Part shown: positions 6,387-43,869 of the stretch, in pieces
Numbering within the stretch: the first letter of the stretch is position 1
How the letters are laid out: each line of letters starts with the position of its first letter
DNA from: Candidatus Nanosyncoccus sp.
Lineage (GTDB): Bacteria; Patescibacteriota; Saccharimonadia; Saccharimonadales; Saccharimonadaceae
DNA: 64,000 nucleotides
NCBI GenBank assembly: GCA_045603965.1
Contig: JAZUND010000019.1
Coordinates: 312 to 64,311 of the forward strand
Direction: 5' to 3'
Position numbers and translations under genes: made by a program
Notes under the pieces: generated by a model
What the model was told of the DNA's origin: nothing
The model's database searches: none
The model's input: the letters and a program-made list of their open reading frames with translations, nothing else

Positions 6387-7340
6387 TTATTTCTTTGCAA
6401 CGGCACTCAGCACATAATGCCCACTATCTTTCACGAATGTCATAGCGTAAACCGGTATTCTTCCGACAAAATTACCAATCAAATCACGCATGTTATACTG
6501 ATCAATCGAACTCACTATTCCACCAGGAAATTCAATATTCAAACAATACCCATCATTCTCATTTGCACCACATGTAGGAACAGTATCATGATAAACTCCC
6601 ACAATCACATTTTCGCCATCGTATCTGGCACTCTCCACCACATCAAACATAGCAGTACCCGCACCGCCAATACCACTACTCACGACCTCAAATGTTTCAT
6701 AACCATCACTGGCTCTATTTTTATACAAAAACTTCACATTCTGTGCTTGATAATCCTTTTTCTCTATATTCTCGCCACTACCAAATAAATTCTTATATTC
6801 GCTGTTAATTTCATTATAGGAGACTTCCGGATTTTCGCCACTTCCTGAACCAAACAACTCACGCTCTAAATTTCGGTACGCAAGATAAACTTTAGTATCT
6901 TCGCTAAAACCAAGATTAAGAATATTATTATAATAGCCAATCATTTTGATGTACGGATTGATTAAATTCTGCGCTAAGCCATTATCAATATGATTATCGG
7001 CGATATTTATTATGGCTTCATCTTCTGTTGGTCCTTTTTCCTCACTTAGCTTCCCCGCCAGCTCCTCATTTTGTTTTTTCAGTTCATCCACCTGCTGATT
7101 TGCAACATCCACTTTCTTGTTCGCATCCGCCACCTGATTATTCCCGTCAAGCATCGCCCACACGCCAAATCCAATCCCACCAAGCGCCACAATCGCTAGC
7201 ACAATCAAGCCAATTAGCATTCCACTATTCTTCGTCTTCATGTCTTTTGTCATTGCGCCACCCTCATCATTTCCTGTTGTGTTCGCATTTACCGTTTCCA
7301 TCGTTTCACCACTATTTATTTTTTTATCTCCAGTTTCCAT
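6387..7340 (-). CDS. Single-pass membrane-anchored surface protein with coiled coil, unknown function
   Basis: Hydrophobic helix GMLIGLIVLAIVALGGIGFGVWAM followed by heptad repeats; SD AGAAAGG. Confidence 0.8.
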   Translation of the reverse strand: METGDKKINSGETMETVNANTTGNDEGGAMTKDMKTKNSGMLIGLIVLAIVALGGIGFGVWAMLDGNNQVADANKKVDVANQQVDELKKQNEELAGKLSEEKGPTEDEAIINIADNHIDNGLAQNLINPYIKMIGYYNNILNLGFSEDTKVYLAYRNLERELFGSGSGENPEVSYNEINSEYKNLFGSGENIEKKDYQAQNVKFLYKNRASDGYETFEVVSSGIGGAGTAMFDVVESARYDGENVIVGVYHDTVPTCGANENDGYCLNIEFPGGIVSSIDQYNMRDLIGNFVGRIPVYAMTFVKDSGHYVLSAVAKK

Positions 7341-7403
7341 ACAAAACCTTTCTAATCAGACTTATTTTTTTATTATAATACCACAAGCCAAAACCATTAA
7401 TAC

Positions 7404-7546
7404 AAAAATGGCACCGCAAGGGTGAAACACTTTAATCACGACATCAAGGCTGACATACGTAATCAAGAACCTTCCGGTGCCAACATTCCGTACGTCAACA
7501 ATACTAAATAAAAGTACCTTGATTCTCAATGATTAAAGTGTTTCAC
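7404..7546 (-). ncRNA. Structured RNA family, copy 1 (about 143 nt)
   Basis: Promoter TTGCGG-17-TATAAT (7552-7580). 17-bp perfect stem 7530-7546/7422-7438. Conserved 3' end CACCCTTGCGGTGCCATTTTTG. Confidence 0.65.
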
Positions 7547-7594
7547 TTACCATTATATATTGAAAAAACATTCTCCGCAAGCTATAATTTAATT

Positions 7595-8203
7595 ATGTTA
7601 ATTACTGCCAGCCATTTAATCGGCACTCCAGTTCTCAGTATGCAAGCCGCCAGCGCCGTCGGCCAAGTCTCAGCCATCATCGTCGACCCCACCAGTTTTC
7701 AAATTATTGCCTTCTATCTAATCGGTCCCGGCATCGACAAGTCCACCAATATCTTAGACTCTAAATCCATCCGCGAATACTCTAGCTTAGGCATGGTCAT
7801 AGATTCCACCGACGAGCTCGTCGCTCCCACCGACGTCGTTAAAATCAGCAAGGCCATCGCACTAAATTTCAGCCTCATTGGTCTCAAAGTTGAGACCAAA
7901 AAAGGCTCCAAGCTTGGTCGCGTTATTGATTTTACCGTCACCAACGACAATTTCAGCATTCAGCAAATCATCGTCAAACGTCCACTCGTCAAAAGCTTTT
8001 CCGATCCAGAACTTACCATTCCTCGTCACGAAATCGCTGAAATCACCGACACTAAAGTTATCGTCAAAGACGAAGAGGACGTCATTCGCAAAAAAGCCGC
8101 CAAAGAAGATTTCATCCCAAATTTCGTTAATCCATTTCGGAAGTCAGAACAAGCTCACGCACCAGCTCATACGGAAACCCCTGCCGACATAGATATTGAA
8201 TAA
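7595..8203 (+). CDS. PRC-barrel domain protein
   Basis: Two PRC-barrel-like units (LIGTPV...VGQVSAIIVDP; LIGLKVETKKGSKLGRVIDF). Start moved to ATG 7595, 6 nt after TATAAT. Confidence 0.75.
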   Translation: MLITASHLIGTPVLSMQAASAVGQVSAIIVDPTSFQIIAFYLIGPGIDKSTNILDSKSIREYSSLGMVIDSTDELVAPTDVVKISKAIALNFSLIGLKVETKKGSKLGRVIDFTVTNDNFSIQQIIVKRPLVKSFSDPELTIPRHEIAEITDTKVIVKDEEDVIRKKAAKEDFIPNFVNPFRKSEQAHAPAHTETPADIDIE

Positions 8204-29106: not shown

Positions 29107-31296
29107 CTACTCTGCTAGGATACACCTAACTGAGAAACCGTTGTTGCGAACAAAATTACCATTGGACGGATAGACACCGCTAGAATTGACGCCGAGGAAG
29201 TACATACTGTAAGTACTGTACCACGTAGAGGACCAGAAGAAGCCGCTGTTACCCTGATAGCCCGCCTTACCTAAGATGAAGCGGCCGGATAATGGCGTAG
29301 AGAGAGCGGTCTGAAAGGCAGCTACTTGACTTGGGCTACCGCCACTATATTGACTATAAAGATTCTGGAACTCACCAGTTGAACCACCGGTTGGCAATCG
29401 CCATTTGTATGGACAAATATCATCTGTGATGTCTCGGATAGAATCAGCAACTGGATCACTAGAAGGGGAACCGGCAGATGATGTCCCGAAGCCACCCCAA
29501 CAATATGAACCAGCCGAAGCGGCACAATAGTTATAATATACACCTATCTTGCCTTGCACTATACTAGTCACTCCGTTAATAGTTTCAGAAGTAACACTAT
29601 CGTAAGACCAAGGTGAGTCAGCTGCTCCACCGTCCACACAGTATGCATCACTACAGCCACCACTAGTAGTGCTATCTACTGCTATCCACGGCTGTGAATA
29701 ACTGTAGCTGGAAGTCCAAGTTTTCTTCACTGCCGCCATTGCCCATTTATCAGTAGCGGTACCAATAGTATCCCCTTTTAGATAGCCTAGTGCTTTATTG
29801 CTTGCATTAGTCATCTTGCCAGCATTATCACCTGTTCCGTAAAGTTGAGCCCGAGTTAGAGCGGTAAGGTCTAGCGCAAGGTTATCTAACATCCAACATT
29901 TATCGTCAGCGAGTTTCTGCACTCGGTATGGAGTTTCATCACGTTTGTCATATACCGTCGTAATAGTCGTTGGACAATTAGCCAAAGTCAAGTCTTGCAT
30001 ATATATCTTGCTAGTCTTCCCCGTCACCGTCAGCGTAGAAGTACCTGTCACCATATAAGTTGTCGGATTATCCGTCGTAGAACCCAGTGTACCATTCGCC
30101 GTCGTCGCCCAAGTGTCTAACGTATAACTGTTTGAAGTTGGCTCCATAGCAATGGTGTACGGCACTCCATATTTCAAACTCGTTGTTCCGCCACTCGTAG
30201 TCACCGAAGCGGCATTACCGTAAGTCGAGTTCTCAAACGCTACGCTCCCCACACCAGCACCAGCGAAATTTACAGTAACGGTATAACTATTCAAACCCCA
30301 CATAGCATAAAGATATAAGTCGTTAGTATTTGACGTCTGATCGATATTCCAAGACAAATCAGTCCCAGCACCATTAGGATTGTAAGTAATACCGCCACAA
30401 CTATCCACACCGGCCGCTGTAGTGATATTACTAACACTACTAGTGCCACTACACCAACCTAGAAATGTATAATTTGTTTTGGTGGGTACAGCACTGCTTA
30501 TATTAACAGTTTCAGCATAAGAAGAACTACTCTCATTCACTGGGGCATTGCTACCATCCCCAACATTGTAGGTAATAGTATACGGTGTAGCATTCGCTAC
30601 CGCCGTCACCACGAAAGCACTACTATAAGTACCCGGAGGTGTAGTGGCATAACTCACCTTAGCCCCAATGACGATGTTATAGTCATTCTCACTATTATTG
30701 GCAGCATTAGTAATGTCTAGCGTATCACCTTCAATAGTAGGAGCAGGACGAAAAACAGTATTAGCACCACTGTTAAATTTACTTGGCAAATATCCCCAAG
30801 TACTAGCAACAAAATCATTTACGTCACTCAATGTAGACGTCGTGATAGACGGTATCGTGCAATTAGCCGTACAATTGGTATCCACATTTGTAAGTGGCAC
30901 TGGTGTACCTGTAGTGCCAGAAGCTGCAGCTATTTTCAGAGTATAGCCCGTAGCGTTGTTCGTACTAATGCCTATTGTCGTGTCGGAAGCAGACGTACTC
31001 CCCATCATAAAACCATCATCATAATTAGATAAATCAAGCGAAACCGAATCACTGACCCGTATGCTGATGGTGCTAGCGGCGGCATAGACTACACCCCCAT
31101 TATTAAACAGCAATGAAGCAACCCCTGTCACAGTCATTAATACCGCAACCGTCTCCGCCCTAAAGCCAAGACCACTACGCATAAATGCACTACTACGCCG
31201 CCCAAGAGAGGGGTGAATCTTTAGTTTGAAATAAAGGCCCAAAGATTCCAGGCGGCGTAGTAGTACATTCATATTATATATATGCTTATTCTTCAT
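29107..31296 (-). CDS. Surface protein with InlB B-repeat-like and C-terminal Fib_succ_major (FISUMP, C-type lectin fold) domains
   Basis: PTKTNYTFLGW (B-repeat), CWMLDNL, YYNYCAASAG, CPYKWRLPT, GFFWSST, NGFSVRCI. Confidence 0.85.
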   Translation of the reverse strand: MKNKHIYNMNVLLRRLESLGLYFKLKIHPSLGRRSSAFMRSGLGFRAETVAVLMTVTGVASLLFNNGGVVYAAASTISIRVSDSVSLDLSNYDDGFMMGSTSASDTTIGISTNNATGYTLKIAAASGTTGTPVPLTNVDTNCTANCTIPSITTSTLSDVNDFVASTWGYLPSKFNSGANTVFRPAPTIEGDTLDITNAANNSENDYNIVIGAKVSYATTPPGTYSSAFVVTAVANATPYTITYNVGDGSNAPVNESSSSYAETVNISSAVPTKTNYTFLGWCSGTSSVSNITTAAGVDSCGGITYNPNGAGTDLSWNIDQTSNTNDLYLYAMWGLNSYTVTVNFAGAGVGSVAFENSTYGNAASVTTSGGTTSLKYGVPYTIAMEPTSNSYTLDTWATTANGTLGSTTDNPTTYMVTGTSTLTVTGKTSKIYMQDLTLANCPTTITTVYDKRDETPYRVQKLADDKCWMLDNLALDLTALTRAQLYGTGDNAGKMTNASNKALGYLKGDTIGTATDKWAMAAVKKTWTSSYSYSQPWIAVDSTTSGGCSDAYCVDGGAADSPWSYDSVTSETINGVTSIVQGKIGVYYNYCAASAGSYCWGGFGTSSAGSPSSDPVADSIRDITDDICPYKWRLPTGGSTGEFQNLYSQYSGGSPSQVAAFQTALSTPLSGRFILGKAGYQGNSGFFWSSTWYSTYSMYFLGVNSSGVYPSNGNFVRNNGFSVRCILAE

Positions 31297-31348
31297 GTTA
31301 CCTCGTTATTAATACCTCCACCCCGAGCGTGCTACATATAATATAATC

Positions 31349-31494
31349 AAAAATGGCACCGCAAGGGTGCAACAACCTAATAACTAGCATCAGTGACCTG
31401 ATTCAGCTAACGGCTTCCTTGCGATGCCATTTTTTTGCTAAACTCAGGTCCTGATACAAAATATCCTGATGCCATTGGTTATTAAGTTGTTGCA
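31349..31494 (-). ncRNA. Structured RNA family, copy 2 (about 146 nt)
   Basis: Extended -10 TG-T-TACAAT at 31500-31508. 17-bp stem 31478-31494/31368-31384 with one G.U. Identical 22-nt 3' end at 31348-31369. Confidence 0.65.
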
Positions 31495-31575
31495 ATACCA
31501 TTGTAACACGAAAAAACGTCTTTGCCATAGACATTTTCTGCTATTTCAAGTTTTCCACAACCAAAAAAGAAAAAG

Positions 31576-41788: not shown

Positions 41789-41842
41789 TATAGCATTAAA
41801 AATCTATTTTACAAAACCAACATAAGTGTGATATGATTAAAC

Positions 41843-41987
41843 TGTTACAAGTTTACATTTAATTATGGCAGCGATTTTTATATATCGCAGTTTCAAGCAA
41901 TAAATGGCATCGTAAGGAAGCCAAATGTTTGGAACCGCGTACGCTGTGACAAATGTAAGCTTGTAACACCCTTGCGGTGCCATTTTT
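41843..41987 (+). ncRNA. Structured RNA family, copy 3 (about 145 nt)
   Basis: Extended -10 TG-A-TATGAT at 41829-41837. 18-bp stem 41843-41860/41951-41968 with one G.U. Identical 22-nt 3' end at 41967-41988. Confidence 0.65.
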
Positions 41988-42057
41988 GTGCATACTCCAT
42001 TATGATTCATAAGATGGCACCGCAAGGGGGATAGTAACAAAATAAGTGAGGTAAGCT

Positions 42058-43869
42058 ATGCGGTCAATACATCATATCATTCATAAGTATCATCATCCTA
42101 GCACATATTTACTATATGGTTCACTAGGGCTTACTGTTCTTTCTGGGTTTGTTCTATCAAGTTCTGCTACTTATGGTTTGTTTAGTTCTTCTGCTTCTGC
42201 TGTCACTCAAGCCACCTCATCTCGGGCTTCTGTTACTGTATCCTCAACTTGTTCCATGACTGCAACTGTTAATACTGAACATAATGCCACTTTAATTAAT
42301 GGTATGTATTCAGGTAATGATAGTAACTATAATAATGGTATTGGTAAAACCACTATACAGACTTTCTGTAATGATGCTGGTGGTTATGCTATTTATGCTG
42401 TAGGTTTTGGTAATAATGAAGTAGGTAGTAATAAACTACATAGTAATATACTTGGTAGTAACTATGATATTGCTACTGGTACTGCCGAGAGTGGTGATAC
42501 TTCCAACTGGTCTATGAAGGTTACTGCACTTACTGGTACTATAGACGGTGTAGAACAAACCTATGCTCCTACCATTACTAATGACTATGACAAGTATTCA
42601 CCAGTCCCAACGAGTTATACCAAAGTAGCTAGGTTTGATAGACCTACAGACGCAGAAACTATAGGCTCATCCATCACTACTACTTATGCTGCATATATCT
42701 CTCAAACTCAACCAGCTGGTACTTATGTAGGACAAGTAAAGTATGCTCTTGTTCATCCAGGTACTTCTAACGCTCCAGAATCTCTCATCATGCAGAATGT
42801 TGCAGACTGGAAAGAAACCCTTCTAGTAGGTGAAGAAATTGCTGTTACAGATGCAAGAGATGGCAAATCATATACTGTAGCTAGACTTTGTACCAAGGTC
42901 AATTACGACTCTACTTCTGGTCAGTATGAGGCTGGCACCTGTGCTCCTGATGATTTGGAATCTGAAATCTGGATGACTCAGAACCTAGATCTCACTATTG
43001 GTGGAGAATACAATGGTGAACCAATCATTCTAGACAGCAATAATACGGACCTTAACACTGCGGTGACTCCCGAAGGCAACACTATGAAAGATTACAGCAC
43101 AGACGGCGTCACTATTACTTGGGCACCAGGCTCAAATATCCATACGGCTACTAAGATTACTTACCCGGCTACTTCTGGTAATGGTACCGTGGCTGGCTGG
43201 ACTAACACTTATACTGATGCTTATCAAGCTGAAGGCGTGGATGCCAGTGGTAACGAGATGTACAACTATCAAGGCACTAAATACGCTGGTTTGTCTGCTT
43301 GTGAAGCCGCCAATCACACCGAGGCCCAATGTCAGCATTACCATGTAGGTAATTACTACAACTGGTCTGCTTCGGTAGCGATGAGCAACACTGATAATAA
43401 TGCGGCCAACGGTGGTTCCGCTAGCTACTACACAAAGAACTATGTGATGCCGAACTCTATTTGTCCGAAAGGTTGGAGATTGCCGAACGGTCTGACAAAG
43501 GATGAAAACGACGACATAGTGATGTCTGACTTCAACAAGCTTCTCAAGGCTCAGGGTATTACTGGCACTGGCGGTAAAACTGTCGATAATATTACCCGAA
43601 CTGACGGTATAGACTTATATGGTAGTACTAACGTAGGATGGGCTTCGAATGGCTTTAATAAAGTTGGTCTTGCTCCTCTCTATTTCGTTCGCTCAGGCAG
43701 TCTGGGTGGCTCGGCGCTCTATAATTTCGGTACGAGCGGGTACTACTGGTCTAGTACGGTTAGCTCTTCGACGAACGCGTTCAACCTGGGTTACGATTCC
43801 GATGTATTGGTCCTGGCGAACCAGTACAATCGCGGCAACGGCTGGTCTGTGCGTTGTATGGCGCGGTAG
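42058..43869 (+). CDS. Surface protein with C-terminal Fib_succ_major (FISUMP) domain
   Basis: N-terminal TM, DARDGKSYTVARL, WMTQNL, GNYYNWSAS, ICPKGWRLP, GYYWSST, NRGNGWSVRCMAR. Confidence 0.88.
   Translation: MRSIHHIIHKYHHPSTYLLYGSLGLTVLSGFVLSSSATYGLFSSSASAVTQATSSRASVTVSSTCSMTATVNTEHNATLINGMYSGNDSNYNNGIGKTTIQTFCNDAGGYAIYAVGFGNNEVGSNKLHSNILGSNYDIATGTAESGDTSNWSMKVTALTGTIDGVEQTYAPTITNDYDKYSPVPTSYTKVARFDRPTDAETIGSSITTTYAAYISQTQPAGTYVGQVKYALVHPGTSNAPESLIMQNVADWKETLLVGEEIAVTDARDGKSYTVARLCTKVNYDSTSGQYEAGTCAPDDLESEIWMTQNLDLTIGGEYNGEPIILDSNNTDLNTAVTPEGNTMKDYSTDGVTITWAPGSNIHTATKITYPATSGNGTVAGWTNTYTDAYQAEGVDASGNEMYNYQGTKYAGLSACEAANHTEAQCQHYHVGNYYNWSASVAMSNTDNNAANGGSASYYTKNYVMPNSICPKGWRLPNGLTKDENDDIVMSDFNKLLKAQGITGTGGKTVDNITRTDGIDLYGSTNVGWASNGFNKVGLAPLYFVRSGSLGGSALYNFGTSGYYWSSTVSSSTNAFNLGYDSDVLVLANQYNRGNGWSVRCMAR

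What the first reader, a model, noticed from the sequence alone, without database searches (positions are those of the whole stretch)
7403..7580. Candidate new about 145-nt switch-like RNA family, copy 1 of 3 (family description)
Seen in sequence: the 22-mer CACCCTTGCGGTGCCATTTTTG occurs identically three times (7403-7424 -, 31348-31369 -, 41967-41988 +). Each copy lies about 50-70 nt upstream of, and in the same sense as, a surface-protein gene. Each ends a 143-146 nt unit that starts just after a sigma70 -10 box. All three share the layout A...B...A'B'. A/A' is a long interrupted stem whose sequence differs between copies while pairing is kept (cores GTGAAACACTTTAATCA, TGCAACAACTTAATAAC, TGTTACAAGTTTACATTT). 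B (TGGCAYCGNAAGG) lies in the loop of that stem and is complementary to the conserved 3' tail B', which is followed by U5. Most mismatches are G.U wobbles on the sense strand only, which points to RNA or ssDNA structure. Inference: B' abuts the base of the long stem, so A/A' and B/B' cannot form together in cis. That implies either a two-state attenuator controlling surface proteins, or loop-tail pairing in trans between copies. I recognise no riboswitch or Rfam-type family with this layout, but cannot search. Copy 1 details: promoter TTGCGG-17-TATAAT; extra stem segments 7517-7523/7443-7449 and 7489-7497/7451-7459; B at 7470-7482.
Basis: partly seen in the sequence, partly recalled or inferred. 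Interest (0 to 1): 0.9.

Follow-up and report, generated by a model that had tools for sequence, protein, structure and literature searches.

The report
Pseudoknotted terminator leader RNA family
The three flagged repeats belong to a real folded RNA family of gut Saccharibacteria that is absent from Rfam, sits at the start of surface-protein messages, ends in a terminator-like helix built from a distant loop and the RNA's tail, and most likely gates whether those genes are transcribed.

Summary
The 22-mer occurs three times in the window (none expected). It ends about 145-nt units that start at an extended -10 promoter.

The family is larger than three copies:
- 10 units in this 0.8-Mb genome (Ca. 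Nanosyncoccus-like).
- 1-22 units in 14 of 25 genomes of the genus.
- 1-2 detected in 17 of 217 sampled genera of the order.
- Almost none elsewhere in the phylum.

Both helices covary strongly. In the long stem, all 16 pairs show compensatory changes. In the loop-tail helix B:B', 93% of cells pair and 9 of 13 pairs are compensatory. G.U pairs greatly outnumber A.C pairs, so the fold belongs to sense-strand RNA.

B:B' abuts an invariant U-tract. 87 of 95 units lie directly upstream of a co-oriented gene that usually lacks its own promoter, and 78% of those gene products have a hydrophobic N-terminus.

No Rfam family matches, and it is not LOOT.

Best reading: a 5' leader whose pseudoknot forms a conditional intrinsic terminator. 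The signal it senses is unknown.

The parts
7552..7557 (-).
   Evidence: Across 109 units a TGnTATAAT-type extended -10 sits at a fixed distance, 6 nt before the first G of P1.
7422..7546 (-). Copy 1: long irregular hairpin. P1 is 7529-7546 paired with 7422-7439. P2 and a U-rich hinge lie at about 7500-7517. P3 is 7489-7499 with its partner strand.
   Evidence: MFE fold z = -6.8. P1 pairs 16/16. P1 covariation. Arm and hinge layout.
7470..7482 (-). Copy 1: B (UGGCACCGGAAGG) in the apical loop, partner of the tail
   Evidence: Helix statistics.
7404..7421 (-). Copy 1: B' (CCUUGCGGUGCCA, 7409-7421) followed by the U-tract (7404-7408). This is the terminator-like 3' end.
6387..7340 (-). Copy 1: downstream gene of 317 aa with an N-terminal membrane anchor
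   Evidence: hydrophobic 15-mer KD 2.93. Pfam gives only weak hits.
31349..31505 (-). Copy 2: whole unit. Extended -10 TGTTACAAT at 31500-31508; P1 31478-31494 paired with 31369-31384; hinge about 31451-31465; B 31417-31429; B' 31354-31366; U-tract 31349-31353.
29107..31296 (-). Copy 2: downstream gene of 729 aa, a secreted protein with a Listeria-Bacteroides repeat and a C-terminal FISUMP domain
41830..41987 (+). Copy 3: whole unit. Extended -10 TGATATGAT ending at 41837; P1 41843-41860 paired with 41951-41968; hinge 41874-41885; B 41905-41917; B' 41970-41982; U-tract 41983-41987.
42014..42028 (+). Copy 3: B'' (AUGGCACCGCAAGGG), a third element after the U-tract that pairs with B' more strongly than B does
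   Evidence: Duplex energy -31.2 against -23.2 kcal/mol. A B'' is present in 28 of 87 units, in three species only, and it covaries with B'.
42058..43869 (+). Copy 3: downstream gene of 603 aa, a secreted FISUMP-domain protein whose last about 186 nt are a DGR variable region
   Evidence: Comparison with the template repeat.

Best explanation
Each unit is the 5' leader of the gene behind it.

Transcription starts from an extended -10 promoter at or next to the first G of a long helix (P1). The nascent RNA folds into a rod, P1-P2-hinge-P3, whose sequence is specific to each locus.

When the tail B' emerges directly after the 3' strand of P1, it pairs over 11-14 bp with B in the apical loop. This pairing is extended by A-tract:U-tract pairs. 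The result is a GC-rich helix abutting an invariant U-tract, which is the signal for intrinsic termination.

Forming that helix requires the rod to fold back at the one-sided U-rich hinge. I infer that this step, or the availability of B, is what is regulated. Most transcripts would then end as an RNA of about 145 nt. Read-through into the surface or membrane-protein gene would occur only when the loop-tail helix fails to form in time.

In relatives outside the genus, two further features give a classical 1-2-3-4 attenuator layout. The hinge carries a copy of the 5' half of B' that can sequester B. A compact local hairpin, GACACC-loop-GGUGUC, overlaps the last 3 nt of P1.

Shown: the anatomy, the covariation of both helices, the strand, the promoter position and the gene association.
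Inferred: termination, its conditionality and the fold-back. The signal (ligand, protein, temperature or another RNA) is unknown.
For: Copy number and spread:
- The 22-mer occurs 3 times against 0 expected.
- There are 10 units in the genome and 1-22 in 14 of 25 congeners.
- 17 of 217 genera of the order have a match, and there is only one weak hit among genomes sampled outside the order.

P1:
- RNAalifold on a plain MAFFT alignment of the 9 paralogues gives 16 pairs, 15 of them compensatory and none broken.
- On 89 units, 97% of cells pair and all 16 pairs are compensatory. Covariation score is 0.91 against 0.20 in shuffles.

B:B':
- Every one of 89 units has an 11-14-bp loop-tail duplex, and B and B' change together.
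- Duplex energy of a unit's interior is -23.6 kcal/mol with its own tail and -16.8 with a foreign tail.
- 93.3% of cells pair, 9 of 13 pairs are compensatory, and 0 of 500 shuffles reach the observed values.
- RNAalifold on an independent MAFFT alignment of out-of-genus units recovers the same helix plus the A:U extension.

Strand: 121 G.U against 12 A.C in the first 9 pairs.

U-tract: it is invariant, whereas its A-tract partner tolerates G.

Promoter: TGnTATAAT is fixed 6 nt before the first G of P1 in 109 units.

Leader status:
- 87 of 95 units are followed by a co-oriented ORF with a Shine-Dalgarno site, at a median of 63 nt in the genus and 25 nt outside it.
- Only 6 of 70 in-genus spacers and 0 of 17 out-of-genus spacers hold an extended -10, against 56 of 70 and 11 of 17 upstream of the units themselves.

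Gene class: 78% of products have an N-terminal hydrophobic segment, against 38% in the genome background.

The energy sum is.
Against: - There are no transcript data.
- The simple scan calls no canonical terminator at copy 1. The local hairpin there has only 4-5 bp and the real stem is long-range.
- A helix whose 5' strand lies 60 nt upstream inside a pseudoknot may form too slowly to terminate. It could instead be an anti-terminator or purely architectural.
- No invariant ligand-pocket-like core is evident in the own-genus units.
- The downstream genes share no metabolic theme.
- The perfect identity of the 22-mer may partly reflect gene conversion. The stretch from B' into the start of the ORF is shared between paralogues whose hairpin bodies differ.
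Confidence: 0.55

Rival explanations
1. It is a constitutive structural 5' UTR element. The paired 5' end and compact pseudoknot protect long surface-protein mRNAs from 5'-end-dependent decay, or tune translation, without regulated termination. On this reading the U-tract matters mainly as the partner of the A-tract.
For: The predicted start site falls at the base of P1, so the 5' end would be base-paired. The fold is very stable. The A-tract before B pairs with the U-tract. Structured 5' leaders that stabilise ompA and S-layer mRNAs are established (own knowledge).
Against: The U-tract is invariant while its partner varies (A or G). It therefore seems selected as U and not merely as a pairing partner. 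Relatives carry a compact hairpin plus U-run of textbook terminator form. A stabiliser does not need a covarying 13-bp long-range helix placed exactly at a U-run.
Confidence: 0.15
2. It is a free-standing small RNA that is efficiently terminated and has a function of its own, with expression of the downstream gene a by-product of leakage. The RNAs could act in trans. One option is reciprocal loop-tail pairing that gives antiparallel dimers or chains. Another is pairing with the tails of nascent sister leaders.
For: The unit has its own strong promoter and a terminator-like end. Outside the genus the hairpin sequence is conserved across families while the gene behind it varies. Within one genome most units share compatible B and B' sequences. 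Antiparallel dimers would solve the geometry without any bending (inference).
Against: 87 of 95 units are co-oriented with, and close to, a downstream ORF that mostly lacks its own promoter. Units of a single genome (G023) carry different B' variants, each matched by its own B. This points to selection on pairing within one molecule or between identical molecules, not on a common trans partner.
Confidence: 0.15
3. It is a small-molecule riboswitch, a special case of the best explanation. A metabolite or ion would bind at the hinge or junction and set the fold-back, and so the terminator.
For: It has a riboswitch-like layout: the closing helix overlaps the terminator, there is a pseudoknot, and relatives show alternative pairings. 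The hinge and the 3' internal loop (UGUGAAUGG) are conserved in out-of-genus units.
Against: Up to 22 copies per genome lie in front of adhesin-like paralogues with no shared metabolic or transport function. The stems are hypervariable, and few unpaired positions are invariant in the own-genus units. In the own genus the hinge is simply U-rich and shows no conserved pairing to B.
Confidence: 0.12
4. It is a DNA-level element: a MITE, a cruciform, or an invertible segment bounded by the inverted repeats (B/B' or A/A') that switches the genes by site-specific inversion.
For: Nested inverted repeats lie in front of surface-protein genes and of one Mod methylase gene. These are classic phase-variable gene classes (own knowledge).
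Against: - The mismatches are G.U on one strand only (121 against 12; UG-type pairs in P1).
- All 109 units have B complementary to B', so no flipped copy was seen.
- The promoter lies outside the repeats.
- The arms differ in sequence between loci, so no single recombinase site exists.
- Position and orientation relative to genes are fixed.
- Hairpin bodies are conserved between species at matching loci.
Confidence: 0.03

Closest known systems
Intrinsic (Rho-independent) terminators within transcription attenuators (trp-type 1-2-3-4 leaders)
   Same: A GC-rich helix is directly followed by a U-tract and preceded by an A-tract. It sits in a leader between a promoter and an ORF that has no promoter of its own. 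In out-of-genus members there are four segments: hinge arm b, hinge arm b' (a copy of part of B'), B and B'. These allow 1:2 with 3:4, or 2:3.
   Different: The 5' strand of the terminator stem lies about 60 nt upstream in the apical loop of a rod of about 36 bp. The stem is therefore a pseudoknot and not a hairpin. There is no conserved leader peptide: ORFs from the 5' NUG run from 2 to 69 codons. The own-genus units lack segment 2.
Transcriptional riboswitches whose pseudoknot or closing helix overlaps the terminator (ZTP/pfl, preQ1-I, fluoride, SAM-II-like designs)
   Same: A structured leader in which long-range pairing between a loop and the 3' tail decides what happens at a U-tract. The end of P1 overlaps a local terminator hairpin in relatives.
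   Different: No Rfam riboswitch model matches. The pseudoknot is 11-14 bp, far longer than in those aptamers. The stems are locus-specific. The genes are adhesin-like paralogues and assorted membrane proteins rather than a metabolic regulon. No ligand is known.
LOOT RNA (Rfam RF03000), an orphan RNA that is also present in this order
   Same: It occurs in the same bacterial order (2 of 16 sampled other families).
   Different: The LOOT model finds nothing in this genome or in 24 congeners. LOOT's consensus is four hairpins with CCUAA...GCAUGG and GAAA loops, which is a different fold.
5'-terminal stem-loop mRNA stabilisers (ompA leader; S-layer gene leaders)
   Same: A stable helix starts at or near +1 of mRNAs for abundant envelope proteins.
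   Different: Those elements have no covarying loop-tail helix and no U-tract. Here a terminator-like module is the most conserved part.

Membership tests
LOOT RNA (RF03000) | Scores at or above the Rfam gathering threshold with the family model | tested here: not met
   No match in the window or in unit loci at E up to 1-5. There were 0 hits in the own genome and in 24 congeners, while two other families of the order scored 65-80 bits.
LOOT RNA (RF03000) | Four-hairpin consensus with CCUAA...GCAUGG and GAAA tetraloops | tested here: not met
   The alignments show that fold. The units here are one long rod plus a loop-tail helix.
Any other Rfam 15 family | A match at the gathering score or at a low E-value | tested here: not met
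   Only tRNAs were found. At E up to 5 only chance-level hits appear, namely mir-4868, SAM, rivX, GEBRO and STnc400. RF00169 gives nothing in the genome.
Canonical intrinsic terminator | GC-rich helix immediately followed by a run of U | tested here: met
   The B:B' helix ends 0-1 nt before T4-6 in 109 units. The T columns are invariant.
Canonical intrinsic terminator | Compact hairpin with a loop of about 3-8 nt | tested here: not met
   The scan finds none at copy 1, where the local hairpin has 4-5 bp. Out-of-genus units do have GACACC-loop-GGUGUC.
Canonical intrinsic terminator | Transcripts end in the U-tract | not testable with these tools
Riboswitch | Expression platform that shares nucleotides with, or is controlled by, the folded sensor domain | tested here: met
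   B' pairs with the apical loop. The 3' end of P1 overlaps the local terminator arm.
Riboswitch | Conserved ligand-binding core and specific ligand binding | not testable with these tools
   The conserved unpaired positions are limited to the U-rich hinge and, outside the genus, UGUGAAUGG.
Riboswitch | Association with a coherent set of metabolic or transport genes | tested here: not met
   The downstream genes are FISUMP or List_Bact-repeat surface proteins, small membrane proteins and one Mod methylase.
Peptide-dependent (trp-type) attenuator | Conserved leader peptide ORF | tested here: not met
   ORFs from the NUG at the 5' end run from 2 to 69 codons with no conserved length.
MITE | Insertion without regard to gene and orientation | tested here: not met
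   87 of 95 units are co-oriented just upstream of an ORF. The promoter is part of the unit. The mismatches are strand-specific G.U. Target-site duplications were not examined.
Invertible promoter or segment (inverton) | Inverted repeats flank the switched segment, and both orientations occur | tested here: not met
   All 109 units have the same internal orientation. The promoter lies outside the repeats. The repeats are imperfect at the DNA level. Read-level heterogeneity could not be tested.

The most novel reading that the evidence does not exclude
The leaders form an RNA-RNA network. Terminated RNAs of about 145 nt, or the B'' segment of read-through transcripts, would pair in trans with the loops or tails of sister leaders, or would form antiparallel loop-tail dimers. 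Termination at one adhesin locus would then depend on transcription at the others. This would be an RNA-level circuit that coordinates, or makes mutually exclusive, the expression of a DGR-diversified surface-protein repertoire in an epibiont that has few protein regulators.
Probability: 0.08. Interest if true: 0.9.

Novelty: new variant of a known kind. Interest (0 to 1): 0.7.

Why it matters
Saccharibacteria are tiny epibionts whose surface proteins decide host attachment. Little is known about how they regulate genes.

Here a single RNA design, with up to 22 copies in a 0.7-1 Mb genome, heads the genes of adhesin-like proteins, at least one of which is diversified by a diversity-generating retroelement (DGR). 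If it is a conditional terminator, it is probably the main switch for this repertoire.

It would also be an unusual case of an intrinsic terminator whose stem is a 13-bp long-range pseudoknot. Its covariation support is strong, and it is a tractable orphan for riboswitch or attenuator biochemistry.

Tried and rejected
- Rfam at gathering and permissive thresholds on the window and on unit loci: nothing.
- SRP-RNA mimicry, suggested by a GGAA/GCAA-capped apical loop: RF00169 finds nothing, and the GNRA loop is not conserved outside this genome.
- Leaderless leader peptide starting at the 5' NUG: ORF lengths run from 2 to 69 codons. The UG is explained by pairing with the conserved CA of the tail.
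- Sequestration of the Shine-Dalgarno or start region by the unit: no signal, mean z -0.55.
- Hinge pairing with B in the own genus: none, mean z +0.25. It is present only outside the genus.
- A separate promoter between the U-tract and the ORF: rare.
- Exact tails in viral contigs: 0.
- Inversion or MITE: see the rival explanations.
- One Pfam call on a 90-aa fragment was uninformative.

Full report
**Observation**

The 22-mer CACCCTTGCGGTGCCATTTTTG occurs exactly three times in the window: 7403-7424 (-), 31348-31369 (-) and 41967-41988 (+). There are no near-matches and none are expected by chance.

- A -10 box lies at 7552-7557, 31500-31505 and 41832-41837.
- A few nt later begins a long stem whose 16-nt cores pair 16/16 although the three sequences are unrelated.
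- B (TGGCAYCGNAAGG) sits at the apex, at 7470-7482, 31417-31429 and 41905-41917.
- The 3' arm of the stem runs straight into CCTTGCGGTGCCA plus T5.

The folds are much more stable than shuffled sequence, with z = -6.8, -7.6 and -5.0. Co-oriented ORFs start 51-69 nt further on.

**Size and spread of the family**

- The window's genome (796 kb, 45 contigs) holds 8 exact tails plus a variant with a compensated change.
- A covariance model built from these nine finds a tenth, divergent unit.
- The same model finds 1-22 units in 14 of 25 genomes of the genus. G023 has 22, G013 has 16 and G015 has 13.
- A second model, built from 89 units, finds 1-2 units per genome in 17 of 217 sampled genera of the order.
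- It finds only one weak hit among genomes sampled outside the order in a 400-genome sample of the phylum.
- Record titles of exact 21-mer matches name Candidatus Saccharibacteria and Ca. Nanosyncoccus MAGs from ruminant, rabbit, mouse and human guts.

**It is a structured RNA read on the sense strand**

P1:
- RNAalifold on a plain MAFFT alignment of the nine paralogues predicts 16 pairs. Fifteen have compensatory changes and none is broken.
- On 89 units, 97% of cells pair and all 16 pairs are compensatory. The covariation score is 0.91 against 0.20 in shuffles and about 0.1 for slid partners. That alignment was fitted to the model; one search was not.

B:B':
- In every one of 89 units, the 17 nt before the T-run pair over 11-14 bp with a segment at the centre of the unit, and the two sides change together. 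Examples are CCTCGTGGTGCCG with CGGCATCATGAGG, CCTAGTGGTGCCTA with TAGGCACCATTAGG, and TGGCACGGTGTCGA with TCGGCATCGTGCC.
- A unit's interior binds its own tail at -23.6 kcal/mol on average, and foreign tails that differ at 3 or more positions at -16.8.
- On an ungapped 61-sequence alignment, 93.3% of cells pair and 9 of 13 pairs are compensatory. None of 500 shuffles reaches the observed values, and slid controls fall to 31-52%.
- RNAalifold on an independent MAFFT alignment of 19 out-of-genus units recovers the same helix, extended by A-tract:U-tract pairs.
- Units within one genome (G023) carry different B' variants, each matched by its own B. The selected pairing is therefore within one molecule, or between identical molecules.

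Strand: in the first nine pairs of B:B' there are 121 G.U against 12 A.C. P1 has many U.G pairs. This asymmetry rules out a double-stranded DNA signal and the antisense strand.

**Promoter and leader status**

- Aligned on the model start, 109 units show TGnTATAAT at a fixed position. The last T lies 6 nt before the invariant first G of P1. The predicted 5' end is therefore at the base of P1.
- 87 of 95 units with enough flank are followed by a co-oriented ORF with a Shine-Dalgarno site. The median distance is 63 nt in the genus and 25 nt outside it, and can be as short as 10 nt.
- Only 6 of 70 in-genus spacers and 0 of 17 out-of-genus spacers contain an extended -10. By contrast 56 of 70 and 11 of 17 units have one upstream of themselves.
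- Most downstream genes can therefore only be transcribed through the unit. The unit is a 5' leader and not an independent neighbour.

**The genes behind it**

- In this genome they encode large secreted proteins. Several have a C-terminal FISUMP domain (TIGR02145) and a Listeria-Bacteroides repeat. One is a 317-aa anchored protein.
- Across the family, 78% of products have an N-terminal hydrophobic segment, against 38% of long ORFs in the genome.
- Outside the genus the genes are small membrane proteins, hypothetical proteins and one Mod-type methylase.

**Architecture**

Folding with B held single-stranded gives the same plan in nearly all units:
- P1 of 13-19 bp, then a small internal loop.
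- P2 of 6-11 bp.
- A strongly one-sided, U-rich 5' bulge of 12-30 nt, with 0-3 nt opposite.
- P3 of 7-16 bp.
- An apical loop of 5-8 nt, then B, then 5-8 nt.
- B' follows P1 after 0-4 nt.

The lower arm averages 21.5 bp and the upper arm 14.2 bp. If the rod folds back at the hinge, the apical loop comes within linker reach of a B:B' helix lying beside P1. This is my rough geometric estimate and not a model.

An additive energy estimate (hairpin with B free, plus the duplex) gives -65 to -78 kcal/mol. The best nested folds give -50 to -61, before any pseudoknot penalty.

Since both helices covary and the rod is far too stable to open, the two most likely coexist.

**Terminator reading**

- B:B' is GC-rich, ends 0-1 nt before an invariant run of 4-6 U, and is preceded by an A-tract.
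- The U's are invariant whereas the A-side tolerates G. The U-run therefore appears to be selected for its identity as U and not only for pairing.
- In the window's copies the local hairpin within the tail (CACC-CUUGC-GGUG) has only 4-5 bp. The simple scanner calls no terminator there. Any termination must therefore rely on the long-range helix.
- That an RNA strand supplied from elsewhere can replace the upstream half of a terminator hairpin is established in vitro (Yarnell and Roberts 1999, from memory).
- Outside the genus the tail also forms a compact GACACC-loop-GGUGUC hairpin, whose first three nt are the last three of P1.
- Outside the genus the hinge is a small hairpin whose 3' arm copies 5-8 nt of B' (TTGCGGT, GCGTGGT, GCACG, covarying with B'). 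It can sequester B.
- That gives four segments with alternative pairings, as in classical attenuators. The own-genus units lack this copy (mean z +0.25; 0 of 89).

**The third element**

- In three species (this genome, G013 and G015; 28 of 87 units) a segment B'' lies 11-34 nt after the U-tract. It pairs with B' more strongly than B does, at -27 to -32 kcal/mol, and it covaries with B' between species.
- Window copy 3 has it at 42014-42028.
- Because it is transcribed after the U-tract, it can only act on read-through transcripts, or in trans. Its role is unexplained.

**Comparison with known families**

- No Rfam 15 family matches at gathering or permissive thresholds.
LOOT is present in two other families of the order but not in this genus, and its consensus is a different, four-hairpin fold.
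- Full-text searches found no description of such an element in Saccharibacteria.
- Earlier notes of this scan describe what seems to be the same or a sister family in other genomes as an uncatalogued leader with a terminator. These are unverified AI notes, but my independent analysis agrees with them.

**Verdict**

The finding is real. It is a new family of structured leader RNA, restricted to Saccharimonadales and expanded in Ca. Nanosyncoccus. It most likely works as a conditional intrinsic terminator built from a long-range pseudoknot.

The kind (leader or attenuator) is known. The design and the family are not. What it senses, and whether the pseudoknot terminates or prevents termination, remain open.

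Noticed in passing
window 43684-43869 (3' end of gene 42058-43869); own genome C1:881-1066 and C1:233-418: There is a diversity-generating retroelement (DGR). C1:881-1066 behaves as the template repeat. 21 of its 22 differences from C1:233-418, and 18 of its 26 differences from the window gene's last 186 nt, fall at template adenines, and the alignments are ungapped. At least one leader-controlled surface protein is therefore DGR-diversified.
   Followed up: partly
own genome C33:33132 and C35:25634; G013 and G015 loci L042-L072: The stretch from B' through B'', the Shine-Dalgarno site and the signal peptide is nearly identical between paralogues whose hairpin bodies are unrelated. Many contigs of G013 and G015 break about 115 nt downstream of a unit. 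This suggests recombination or gene conversion with a breakpoint at the tail. The hairpin bodies, by contrast, are conserved between species at matching loci.
   Followed up: partly
window 29107-31296 (-) N-terminus; own genome C29, C11; L047, L057: Several downstream proteins share an N-terminal motif...(H/I)PSLGRRS..., ahead of the membrane segment. Another paralogue group in G023 shares MLHKKRKPSTFT...NMLHSKSTYFYRW. These may be lineage-specific export signals.
   Followed up: no
whole own genome: The bacterial small SRP RNA model (RF00169) finds nothing at E up to 1 in a genome rated 99% complete. The large-SRP model was not tried.
   Followed up: no
L145, L146, L162, L170, L171, L187, L200: Full units occur on contigs of rabbit-gut MAGs labelled Clostridia, Oscillospiraceae or Bacilli, including contigs of 115 and 161 kb. 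These are probably mislabelled or mis-binned Saccharibacteria.
   Followed up: partly
L164 (Phytobacter), L211 (Kosakonia): The exact 21-mer also occurs in two enterobacterial genomes, but only as part of a 33-nt stretch that matches the model. I did not read these sequences. The match covers the tail region only.
   Followed up: no
window 7560-7588 (+): A near-consensus promoter (TTGAAA-17-TATAAT, 11 of 12) points away from copy 1, towards the PRC-barrel gene at 7529-8203. Its ORF start overlaps the 5' arm of P1 of copy 1 on the other strand.
   Followed up: no
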